DNA of 64,000 nucleotides from Escherichia coli O157:H7 (GTDB lineage: Bacteria > Pseudomonadota > Gammaproteobacteria > Enterobacterales > Enterobacteriaceae). The stretch is from the NCBI RefSeq assembly GCF_013167455.1, contig NZ_CP038328.1, one strand, 5' to 3'. The notes beneath the pieces were generated by a model. It did not search any database. It was not told the origin of the DNA and was given only the letters and a program-made list of their open reading frames with translations. Shown one piece after another: positions 13,074 to 36,973 of the stretch (position 1 is its first letter; every line of letters starts with the position of its first letter). Made by a program: the position numbers and the translations under genes.

Positions 13074-13150
<77 letters not shown>

Positions 13151-13183
13151 TCACCGTACTGCTTTTACTTCATCAAATTTGAT

Positions 13184-13260
<77 letters not shown>

Positions 13261-13293
13261 TCACCGTACTGCTTTACTTCATCAAATTTTAAT

Positions 13294-13370
<77 letters not shown>

Positions 13371-14763: not shown

Positions 14764-14861
14764 TGCCGGATGCGGCGTGAACGCCTTATCCGGCCTACAA
14801 ATCATGCAAATCCAAAATATTGCAGGAGTTATGTAGGCCTGATAAGCGTAGCGCATCAGGC
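14764..14861. repeat. Pair of REP elements (BIME-like) in mltA-tcdA spacer
   Basis: GCCGGATGCGGCGTGAACGCCTTATCCGGCCTAC and inverted GTAGGCCTGATAAGCGTAGCGCATCAGGC match REP consensus. Confidence 0.6.
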
Positions 14862-17855: not shown

Positions 17856-18061
17856 AAAAAAAAGCACCGCAATTAGGCGGTGCTACATTAATCACTATGG
17901 ACAGACAGGGTAAATGTACAGGAAGTGAAAAAAGGTAGCTTTGCTACCATGGTCTGAATCGCAGACCAATTGCAAACACAACAACACAACATCACAACCG
18001 TAAGCCAAAAGTTCACCAGAACACGCATTCCGATAAAACTTTTCGTTCCGGCTCAGGAAGT
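17856..18061 (-). ncRNA. gcvB: GcvB small regulatory RNA
   Basis: Reverse complement reads ACTTCCTGAGCCGGAACG...GUUGUGAUGUUGUGUUGUUGUGUUUG (GU-rich seed)...GCACCGCCTAATTGCGGTGCTTTTTTTT terminator; divergent from gcvA. Confidence 0.9.
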
Positions 18062-35476: not shown

Positions 35477-36022
35477 GTGGACGATTTGACCGCACAAGCC
35501 CTGAAAGATTTTACTGCACGCTACTGCGATGCGTGGCATGAAGAGCATAAAAGCTGGCCGTTAAGTGAGGAACTGTACGGCGTTCCTTCACCGTGCATTA
35601 TTTCAACTACTGAAGATGCCGTATACTGGCAACCCCAGCCGTTTACCGGGGAACAAAATGTAAACGCGGTTGAACGCGCTTTTGATATTGTGATACAACC
35701 CACAATTCATACCTTTTATACGACTCAGTTTGCCGGGGATATGCACGCGCAGTTTGGCGATATCAAACTGACATTGCTGCAAACCTGGAGTGAAGACGAC
35801 TTCCGTCGGGTGCAGGAAAATCTGATTGGTCATCTGGTGACTCAGAAAAGGCTAAAACTGCCACCCACGCTATTTATCGCGACGCTGGAAGAAGAGTTAG
35901 AGGTCATCTCGGTGTGTAATCTCTCCGGTGAAGTGTGTAAAGAGACGCTGGGAACACGTAAACGGACGCATTTAGCCCCAAATCTTGCGGAATTCCTTAA
36001 TCAACTTAAGCCTCTTCTGTAA
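35477..36022 (+). CDS. syd: SecY-interacting protein Syd
   Basis: 181-aa ORF recognised as Syd. Confidence 0.9.
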
Positions 36023-36231
36023 TCCAAATACCCCATCTGGTTGTGAGAGATCTCTTACAGACTCTGTAGGAGATCGCCAGGAAATAAGCGAATACTTAAA
36101 AAGATAAGAATCGTTATTTTCATTTAAAAACAACATGTTGCTTGTTAATTCCTAACTTTCATATGAAATTTTCCTTAAGGCATTGTCTGTAAGCGCCTTG
36201 TAAGAGTTCGCGAAAAAGACGATTCTATCTT

Positions 36232-36600
36232 CGTCGACAGGGAGTCAGACAACGAAGTGAACATCAGGATGATGACACTTCTGAAGGACACACCAGGATG
36301 GTGTTTCAGGGAAAGGCTTCTGGATGAAGCGAAGAGGATGACGCAGGACGCGTTAAAGGACACCTCCAGGATGGAGAATGAGAACCGGTCAGGATGATTC
36401 GGTGGGTCAGGAAGGCCTGGGACACTTCAGGATGAAGTATCACATCGGGGTGGTGTGAGCAGGAAGCAATAGTTCAGGATGAACGATTGGCCGCATGGCC
36501 AGAGGAAAAGTTGTCAAGGATGAGCAGGGAGCAACAAAAGTAGCTGGAATGCTGCGAAACGAACCGGGAGCACTGTGAATACAGTGCTCCCTTTTTTTAT
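36232..36600 (+). ncRNA. csrB: CsrB regulatory RNA (CsrA-sequestering)
   Basis: About 370 nt with roughly 20 AGGA/GGA motifs, mostly as CAGGATG; ends in GGAGCACTGTGAATACAGTGCTCC hairpin plus TTTTTTT; located between syd and yqcC; 5' end approximate. Confidence 0.9.
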
Positions 36601-36643
36601 TCCTGCTATCCTTCGCGGCAGTTTTTCTTATTGAGGTTGCTTT

Positions 36644-36973
36644 ATGACCACTCATGACCGCGTTCGTCTCCAGTTGCAGGCGCTTGAAGCGTTACTGCGT
36701 GAACATCAGCACTGGCGAAACGATGAACCCCAGCCGCATCAATTTAATAGTACCCAACCGTTCTTTATGGACACCATGGAACCACTGGAGTGGTTGCAGT
36801 GGGTGCTGATCCCGCGAATGCACGATTTGTTAAATAACAACCAGCCGTTACCGGGCGCTTTTGCCGTTGCACCCTATTATGAAATGGCGCTGGCGACGGA
36901 CCATCCGCAACGCGCGCTTATTCTGGCTGAGTTGGAAAAACTGGATGCTCTTTTTGCGGATGATGCGAGCTAA
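36644..36973 (+). CDS. yqcC: DUF446 protein YqcC
   Basis: 109-aa ORF; stop overlaps truC start. Confidence 0.85.
   Translation: MTTHDRVRLQLQALEALLREHQHWRNDEPQPHQFNSTQPFFMDTMEPLEWLQWVLIPRMHDLLNNNQPLPGAFAVAPYYEMALATDHPQRALILAELEKLDALFADDAS

What the first reader, a model, noticed from the sequence alone, without database searches (positions are those of the whole stretch)
36232..36600. CsrB RNA with about 20 GGA motifs
A dense array of CAGGATG-type motifs ending in a strong terminator between syd and yqcC. This is the CsrA-titrating sRNA whose expression depends on BarA/UvrY; barA itself is about 6 kb downstream in this window.
Basis: partly seen in the sequence, partly recalled or inferred. 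Interest (0 to 1): 0.3.

Follow-up and report, generated by a model that had tools for sequence, protein, structure and literature searches.

The report
csrB, the CsrA-sponging small RNA
This is the well-known E. coli csrB gene, which makes a small non-coding RNA carrying 22 GGA sites that soak up the global regulator protein CsrA; it is correctly identified and entirely ordinary.

Summary
The finding is correct and already known. Window 36233-36601 (+) is csrB. It is a full-length match to Rfam RF00018 (382.6 bits against a gathering score of 71). It is 98.9% identical (4 SNPs) to the annotated K-12 ncRNA csrB (b4408) and 100% identical to E. coli O157:H7 chromosomes. The 369-nt RNA has 22 GGA triplets on the + strand and 2 on the - strand. 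The window average is 4.6 per 360 nt, and the highest count elsewhere is 14. In the consensus fold of 13 enterobacterial genera, 11 of the 21 GGA inside the Rfam match sit in hairpin loops. Seven more lie in single-stranded linkers and 3 are paired, one of them in the terminator. The stems are supported by covariation: 16 pairs have compensatory changes, against 0-6 in slid controls. A perfect 11-bp terminator followed by a T7 run ends the gene. The experimentally mapped UvrY-binding palindrome TGTGAGAGATCTCTTACA sits at exactly the published position (-183/-182), and an intact barA lies 6.3 kb downstream on the opposite strand. Two small corrections apply. The coordinates are shifted by one base. 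Only 6 sites are exact CAGGATG, and about half of the GGA, not all, are in loops. Nothing here is novel.

The parts
36233..36601 (+). csrB gene (369-nt CsrB sRNA), from the K-12-annotated 5' end to the end of the terminator T-run
   Evidence: Rfam RF00018 at 382.6 bits over 36242-36601. The alignment to K-12 ncRNA csrB b4408 maps it to 36233-36601 with 4 SNPs. It is 100% identical to O157:H7 chromosomes.
36241..36569 (+). Array of 22 GGA triplets (candidate CsrA-binding sites 1-22), median spacing 14 nt. First bases: 36241, 36267, 36286, 36296, 36310, 36322, 36336, 36346, 36358, 36369, 36373, 36392, 36410, 36420, 36430, 36462, 36477, 36504, 36518, 36528, 36546, 36567
   Evidence: One search lists the sites. 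The count of 22, with site 22 in the terminator, matches the numbering of Vakulskas et al. 2016 (PMC5027483). Seventeen of the 21 sites inside the Rfam span are kept as GGA in at least 10 of 13 genera.
36254..36551 (+). Series of about 12 short hairpins (2-7 bp stems; the first is a composite of 11 pairs) that present GGA in their loops
   Evidence: RNAalifold consensus on 13 genera. 96.1% of cells are paired and 16 pairs have compensatory changes, against 0-6 in slid controls; 0 of 500 shuffles reach the observed values.
36528..36548 (+). GGA sites 20 (36528) and 21 (36546), the two sites reported to shield CsrB from RNase E when CsrA is bound
   Evidence: The positions are identical to K-12. 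Their function is taken from PMC5027483. Both are GGA in 13 of 13 genera.
36553..36565 (+). Unstructured segment GCGAAACGAACCG holding the RNase E 'necessary cleavage site' (A327 and A331 of CsrB = window 36559 and 36563)
   Evidence: Coordinates were transferred from PMC5027483 through the K-12 alignment. The segment is unpaired in the MFE and consensus folds and nearly invariant across genera.
36566..36601 (+). Rho-independent terminator: 11-bp stem, 4-nt loop, then TTTTTTTATT
   Evidence: The window has A-U at 36572 where K-12 has a G.U wobble.
36042..36059 (.). UvrY-P binding palindrome TGTGAGAGATCTCTTACA, centred at -183/-182 relative to the start site at 36233
   Evidence: Exact match, with 0.02 expected by chance. 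The sequence and position are as published for the DNase I footprint and ChIP-exo (Zere et al. 2015, PMC4682653). It is conserved at the same distance upstream of csrB in 17 of the 17 genera that have enough upstream sequence, with 0-4 mismatches.
36065..36073 (+). Partial extra half-site TGTAGGAGA, 5 bp downstream of the palindrome
   Evidence: Read directly from the sequence. It is described in PMC4682653 and forms an inverted repeat with the right arm of the palindrome (I1).
36198..36232 (+). Core promoter region. The candidate -35 is TTGTAA (36198-36203), followed by a 17-nt spacer and a candidate -10 GATTCT (36221-36226). It is a weak sigma-70 match
   Evidence: I read these hexamers from the sequence, so they are an inference. 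The consensus scan finds no promoter at its threshold, which fits an activator-dependent promoter. The published downstream UvrY crosslinking zone spans -56 to +25.
42945..45701 (-). barA, the sensor kinase that phosphorylates UvrY. It is a functional partner of csrB, not part of the gene
   Evidence: Intact 918-aa ORF, annotated as BarA in the O157:H7 record, which differs from the window at 4 of 20651 bases.

Best explanation
This is csrB of Escherichia coli (O157:H7-type allele). It is transcribed on the + strand from a weak promoter that needs phosphorylated UvrY bound to a palindrome about 183 bp upstream. IHF is thought to bend the DNA in between. The 369-nt untranslated RNA folds into a string of short hairpins and single-stranded linkers that display 22 GGA triplets. 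About 18-19 of these are accessible. Each CsrA dimer has two RNA-binding faces and can bridge neighbouring sites, so one CsrB molecule sequesters many CsrA dimers and relieves CsrA control of its mRNA targets. Turnover starts with RNase E cleavage in the unstructured stretch just before the terminator. CsrA bound at GGA sites 20 and 21 blocks that cut, and CsrD overrides the block when a preferred carbon source is present. Shown here: identity, anatomy, motif enrichment and accessibility, stem covariation, synteny, and the presence of the UvrY box. Taken from the literature and not tested here: CsrA binding, UvrY/IHF dependence, and RNase E/CsrD decay.
For: Full-length Rfam CsrB hit at 382.6 bits, with no competing family at E<=1. 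Four SNPs against the annotated K-12 csrB. Present in 5425 of 5426 complete E. coli genomes at 98.4-100% identity. 22 GGA on the + strand against 2 on the - strand, with a window mean of 4.6. GGA unpaired probability 0.79 against 0.43 overall; MFE z-score -4.8. Consensus hairpins across 13 genera with 16 covarying pairs, and loop GGA kept in 10-13 of 13 genera. The order syd-csrB-yqcC is conserved from Escherichia to Edwardsiella, Pantoea and Erwinia. The UvrY palindrome is exact and at the published position. The numbering of 22 sites and the necessary cleavage site (NCS) residues A327/A331 map onto A residues at 36559 and 36563. barA is intact nearby.
Against: Nothing substantive. No sigma-70 consensus promoter passes the scan threshold, which is expected for an activator-dependent promoter. 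Part of the GGA excess reflects composition: a mononucleotide shuffle gives 11.8 +/- 2.7. Three GGA (36373, 36528 in part, 36567) are base-paired in the consensus fold and are unlikely to bind as drawn. RefSeq/PGAP records for O157:H7 do not annotate the gene. That is an annotation gap, not evidence of absence.
Confidence: 0.98

Rival explanations
1. It is the paralogous sponge CsrC, or another member of the Csr/Rsm clan, rather than CsrB.
For: CsrC belongs to the same Rfam clan (CL00106) and also carries GGA repeats and an upstream UvrY site.
Against: cmscan keeps the best clan member, and that is CsrB with all 356 model positions matched. The sequence is 98.9% identical to the K-12 gene annotated csrB, at the same syd/yqcC locus. 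The upstream palindrome is the csrB version (TGTGAGAGATCTCTTACA), not the csrC version (TGTGAGACATTGCCGATA).
Confidence: 0.005
2. The region encodes a small protein, and the GGA periodicity is a by-product of codon or peptide repeats.
For: Mechanical ORFs of 26-71 aa overlap the region on both strands.
Against: None of these ORFs spans the gene. The cross-genus alignment is full of 1-, 2-, 4- and 5-nt indels that would break any reading frame, while the hairpins are kept by compensatory changes. The conserved features are GGA in loops and a terminator, not a frame.
Confidence: 0.005
3. It is mainly a long structured 5' leader or attenuator of the downstream yqcC-truC-yqcA operon rather than a free-standing sRNA.
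For: yqcC starts only 43 nt after the terminator T-run, on the same strand, so some read-through transcription is conceivable.
Against: A perfect 11-bp G+C-rich stem with a T7 run is a strong intrinsic terminator and is invariant across genera. The published RNA is a discrete 369-nt species that co-purifies with CsrA (PMC7652899 and PMC5027483).
Confidence: 0.01

Closest known systems
E. coli K-12 CsrB (b4408; Rfam RF00018 CsrB/RsmB family)
   Same: Same locus (syd-csrB-yqcC), same length (369 nt), the same 22 GGA sites, and the same terminator, necessary cleavage site (NCS) and UvrY box. 365 of 369 nt are identical.
   Different: There are four SNPs. At 36284 the window has A where K-12 has C, so the site-3 flank is AAGGA rather than CAGGA; this matches E. 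albertii and the Rfam consensus. At 36418 the window has T where K-12 has A, in the flank of site 14. At 36496 the window has T where K-12 has A, in the loop of the GGCC/GGCC hairpin. At 36572 the window has A where K-12 has G, giving an A-U pair instead of a G.U wobble in the terminator, as in all 12 other genera. There are five more SNPs in the 210 bp upstream, none of them in the UvrY box. No GGA is gained or lost.
CsrC (E. coli; RF00084) and the RsmX/Y/Z sponges of Pseudomonas (same Rfam clan as CsrB)
   Same: The same working principle: multiple GGA motifs in loops titrate CsrA/RsmA, and transcription is driven by BarA-UvrY or GacS-GacA through an upstream palindrome.
   Different: They are shorter, have fewer sites and lie at other loci. 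The csrC palindrome is less symmetric and does not depend on IHF.

Membership tests
CsrB/RsmB RNA family (Rfam RF00018) | Scores above the curated gathering threshold of the family covariance model over its full length | tested here: met
   382.6 bits against a gathering score of 71, model positions 1-356 of 356, E=2.6e-111.
CsrB/RsmB RNA family (Rfam RF00018) | Many repeated GGA (A(N)GGA) motifs on the transcribed strand, far above background | tested here: met
   22 on the + strand against 2 on the - strand. The window mean is 4.6 per 360 nt, and the highest + strand count elsewhere is 14.
CsrB/RsmB RNA family (Rfam RF00018) | GGA motifs displayed in hairpin loops or single-stranded linkers, with the stems conserved | tested here: met
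   In the 13-genus consensus, 11 of 21 are in hairpin loops, 7 in linkers and 3 paired. 16 pairs have compensatory changes and 96.1% of cells are paired, against 34-54% in slid controls. GGA unpaired probability is 0.79.
CsrB/RsmB RNA family (Rfam RF00018) | Non-coding RNA ending in a Rho-independent terminator | tested here: met
   Terminator at 36566-36591 followed by T7. No conserved ORF, and the cross-genus alignment has frame-breaking indels.
CsrB/RsmB RNA family (Rfam RF00018) | Binds and sequesters CsrA protein | not testable with these tools
   Known for the K-12 RNA, which differs at 4 of 369 nt with no GGA changed. Inferred by identity.
BarA-UvrY regulon (direct UvrY-P target) | 18-nt UvrY-binding inverted repeat far upstream of the promoter | tested here: met
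   TGTGAGAGATCTCTTACA at 36042-36059, centred at -183/-182 as published. It is conserved at the same distance in 17 other genera.
BarA-UvrY regulon (direct UvrY-P target) | Transcription depends on barA and uvrY | not testable with these tools
   Literature for K-12. barA is intact in the window. uvrY is not in the window.
Orthologue of E. coli csrB (positional) | Located between syd and yqcC, on the same strand as both | tested here: met
   The same order is seen in 17 of 19 loci from other Enterobacterales genera; the other two loci were too short upstream to show syd.

The most novel reading that the evidence does not exclude
The most novel reading still open is that the O157:H7-type allele changes CsrA loading or CsrB expression measurably relative to K-12. 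The allele has 4 SNPs in the RNA, including a strengthened terminator stem and altered flanks of GGA sites 3 and 14, plus 5 SNPs in the region between the UvrY box and the promoter. If it had such an effect, it would contribute to lineage-specific Csr set-points. Nothing found here suggests more than neutral polymorphism: no GGA is gained or lost, and two of the four RNA variants are the state shared with other genera.
Probability: 0.05. Interest if true: 0.25.

Novelty: already known. Interest (0 to 1): 0.05.

Why it matters
CsrB is the founding example of a protein-sponging regulatory RNA and a central node of carbon-storage, biofilm, motility and virulence control in enterobacteria. Finding it here only confirms that the first-stage reader can recognise it from raw sequence. 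The practical value is small. RefSeq/PGAP annotation of the matching O157:H7 chromosomes leaves the gene unannotated, so the exact coordinates and the parts list could be transferred to those records.

Tried and rejected
1. A sigma-70 consensus scan of 35950-36700 found no promoter at its threshold. I therefore give only a hand-read weak -35/-10 and mark it as inference.
2. A permissive Rfam search (E<=1) of the kilobase around the locus looked for competing or antisense families. It returned only sub-threshold noise: an antisense terminator echo at 22.6 bits, P31 at 21.1 bits and CncR1 at 15.3 bits.
3. Small ORFs overlapping the locus were rejected as genes because of frame-breaking indels in the cross-genus alignment.
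4. The long-range pair predicted by RNAalifold (columns 77-78 with 347-348) and the MFE's long-range closing helix were left out of the covariation test. They never vary and are not part of the Rfam consensus.
5. Helix 11 (columns 292-297 with 309-314) is invariant in all 13 sequences, so it is neither supported nor refuted. It would pair part of GGA site 20, which in-line probing reports as a CsrA site, so I do not rely on it.
6. The genome-contig scan with a 20-mer returned 5 chance hits in unrelated phyla and one probable contaminant contig. These were excluded.
7. One repeat finder failed on a strand argument. It was replaced by a pattern search.

Full report
**Observation**

- There are 22 GGA in that span and 22 in the gene as mapped from K-12 (36233-36601). 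There are 21 in the Rfam-matched span 36242-36601, against only 2 on the reverse strand.
- Over the whole 64-kb window, a 360-nt sliding count averages 4.6 (sd 2.4). The best + strand count outside this locus is 14.
- A mononucleotide shuffle of the locus itself gives 11.8 +/- 2.7, so the purine-rich composition explains part of the excess but not all of it.
- "CAGGATG-type" is a loose description. Six sites are exact CAGGATG, nine are CAGGA[ATC]G and fourteen are AGGA.
- The array ends in a perfect 11-bp, 7-G-C hairpin at 36566-36591, followed by TTTTTTT.
- The flanking ORFs are syd (35477-36022, +) and yqcC (36644-36973, +). barA is an intact 918-codon ORF at 42945-45701 on the minus strand, 6344 bp beyond the csrB 3' end.

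The coordinates are one base to the left of the K-12 annotation.

**Identity**

- A gathering-threshold Rfam scan of the whole window gives RF00018 (CsrB/RsmB) at 36242-36601 (+). The score is 382.6 bits against a gathering score of 71, E=2.6e-111, with all 356 model positions matched.
- A permissive scan of the surrounding kilobase finds nothing that competes.
- The interval 36000-36650 is 100% identical to many E. coli O157:H7 chromosomes. A 20.6-kb stretch around it differs from strain PV15-279 at 4 positions.
- In K-12 MG1655 the orthologous position carries the annotated ncRNA csrB (b4408, 369 nt) between yqcC and syd. Alignment puts that gene at window 36233-36601, with 4 substitutions inside the RNA and 5 in the 210 bp upstream.
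- The gene is found in 5425 of 5426 complete E. coli genomes at 98.4-100% identity.
- RefSeq/PGAP does not annotate it in the O157:H7 records.

**Structure and motif display**

- The single-sequence MFE is -121.6 kcal/mol for 36232-36600, with a z-score of -4.8 against dinucleotide shuffles.
- In the MFE of 36233-36601, 10 GGA lie in hairpin loops and 6 more are fully unpaired. Mean unpaired probability of GGA nucleotides is 0.79, against 0.43 for the whole RNA.
- For an independent test I collected csrB loci from other genera. An exact-pattern scan with a conserved 20-mer returned 59 stretches, of which 53 have csrB similarity, one of these being a probable contaminant contig. Rfam confirmed full-length CsrB in all 19 loci that I submitted.
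- I aligned the window to 12 genera. RNAalifold predicts a string of short local hairpins plus the terminator.
- On that structure, restricted to local helices, 96.1% of cells are standard pairs, against 34-54% when partners are slid by 1-3 columns. Sixteen pairs show compensatory double changes, against 0-6 in slid controls. None of 500 column shuffles reaches any observed measure.
- Mapped to the consensus, 11 of the window's 21 GGA inside the Rfam span are in hairpin loops and 7 are in linkers. Three are paired or partly paired (36373; 36528 in part; 36567 in the terminator). Seventeen of the 21 are kept as GGA in at least 10 of 13 genera.
- So the stems drift by compensation while the loop GGA stays fixed. 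That is the expected signature of an RNA whose function is to present GGA.

**Regulation**

- The 18-nt palindrome TGTGAGAGATCTCTTACA occurs once in the window, at 36042-36059, with 0.02 expected by chance. With the start site at 36233 its centre is at -183/-182.
- Zere et al. 2015 (PMC4682653) report exactly this sequence, centred at -183/-182, as the E. coli csrB site of UvrY-P binding by ChIP-exo and DNase I footprinting. They also describe a partial repeat TGTAGGAGA 5 bp downstream, which is present here at 36065-36073. They report a putative IHF site between the palindrome and the promoter, and loss of in vivo binding in a barA mutant.
- In 17 of the 17 other genera with enough upstream sequence, a copy of this box with 0-4 mismatches lies at the same distance from csrB: 191-212 nt before the Rfam model start, against 200 in the window. 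In the same loci, syd and yqcC flank the gene.
- No consensus sigma-70 promoter passes the scan. By eye the best candidate is TTGTAA, 17 nt, then GATTCT, ending 7 nt before the start site. This is a weak promoter that fits activator dependence, and it is my inference.
- barA is intact in the window. uvrY, csrA and csrD are not in the window.

**Turnover elements**

Vakulskas et al. 2016 (PMC5027483) number 22 GGA sites in the 369-nt RNA, with site 22 inside the terminator. They map RNase E cuts at A327 and A331, in an unstructured "necessary cleavage site" just before the terminator. They also show that CsrA bound at sites 20 and 21 protects against that cut unless CsrD intervenes. Through the K-12 alignment these map to window 36559 and 36563 (both A), and to GGA at 36528 and 36546. 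All are identical to K-12 and invariant in the 13-genus alignment.

**Mechanism (shown and inferred)**

- Shown here: the gene's identity, boundaries, motif array, accessibility, conserved hairpins, terminator, UvrY box and synteny.
- Taken from the literature by near-identity: CsrB sequesters CsrA dimers at its multiple high-affinity GGA sites and so relieves CsrA control of mRNAs. Transcription is activated by BarA-phosphorylated UvrY, with IHF, in response to short-chain carboxylates. Decay proceeds by RNase E under CsrD/EIIA-Glc control.
- The median spacing of 14 nt between GGA sites lies within the 10-63 nt range reported for bridging by one CsrA dimer.

**Differences from K-12**

- 36284 is A where K-12 has C. 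The site-3 flank becomes AAGGA, as in E. albertii and the Rfam consensus.
- 36418 is T where K-12 has A. This lies in the flank of site 14; most other genera have A.
- 36496 is T where K-12 has A, in a hairpin loop.
- 36572 is A where K-12 has G. This gives an A-U pair instead of a G.U wobble in the terminator stem. All 12 other genera have A, so K-12 is the odd one.

No GGA is created or destroyed. These look like ordinary lineage polymorphisms.

**Rivals**

- CsrC or another clan member is excluded by the full-length CsrB hit, the locus and the csrB-type palindrome.
- A small protein is excluded by the absence of any spanning ORF and by frame-breaking indels across genera.
- A leader of yqcC is unlikely, given the strong and invariant terminator.

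**Verdict**

This is a textbook gene in a textbook organism. Novelty: already known. Interest: very low.

Noticed in passing
L046:7700-9499 (Enterobacillus tribolii DSM 103736, NZ_QRAP01000005.1): There are three tandem full-length csrB copies (Rfam 232-239 bits each, about 611-nt period) between syd and yqcC. Each has its own UvrY-box-like palindrome TGTAAGACATnTCTCACA roughly 180-200 nt upstream, so the whole promoter-plus-gene unit is triplicated.
   Followed up: partly
L062:1815-3278 (E. coli MARGA_3, NZ_CM170101.1): An IS3-family transposase is inserted in the 5' part of csrB. Only nt 92-369 of the gene remain contiguous next to yqcC. This is a natural csrB disruption in a human isolate.
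   Followed up: partly
E. coli genome collection: One of 5426 complete E. coli genomes has no csrB match at all, and one csrB match lies on a plasmid record. Neither was examined.
   Followed up: no
window 36233-36601, compared with RefSeq O157:H7 records: PGAP/RefSeq annotation lists no feature under csrB in the O157:H7 and most other E. coli records ('none'). The K-12 MG1655 record does annotate ncRNA csrB.
   Followed up: yes
window 17856-18061 (-): Full-length GcvB sRNA (Rfam RF00022, 199 bits).
   Followed up: no
window 13074-13370 (-): Three tandem tRNA-Met (anticodon CAT) genes at 110-nt spacing. All three have identical Rfam scores.
   Followed up: no
window 14798-14840 (+): Short Rfam hit to ES036 (CssrF) sRNA at 46.5 bits against a gathering score of 37.6. 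Not examined.
   Followed up: no
window 40011-41351 (+): gudX carries an in-frame stop at codon 74. It is annotated as a pseudogene ('internal stop') in the matching O157:H7 record.
   Followed up: partly
L043 (NZ_PVBT01000018.1, 797-nt contig labelled Phyllobacterium myrsinacearum): The contig carries E. coli-like csrB (local alignment score 313 of a possible 369), which suggests contamination of that assembly. Five other hits of the 20-mer in unrelated phyla show no csrB similarity and are chance matches.
   Followed up: partly
window 36486-36502, compared with A2 columns 270-283: The GGCC-GCAT-GGCC hairpin has no GGA in its loop in E. coli, E. albertii and Citrobacter. The aligned hairpin in Kosakonia, Yokenella, Trabulsiella, Buttiauxella, Shimwellia and others reads GGTC-AGGA-GACC, so this looks like a lineage-specific loss of one loop GGA site.
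   Followed up: no
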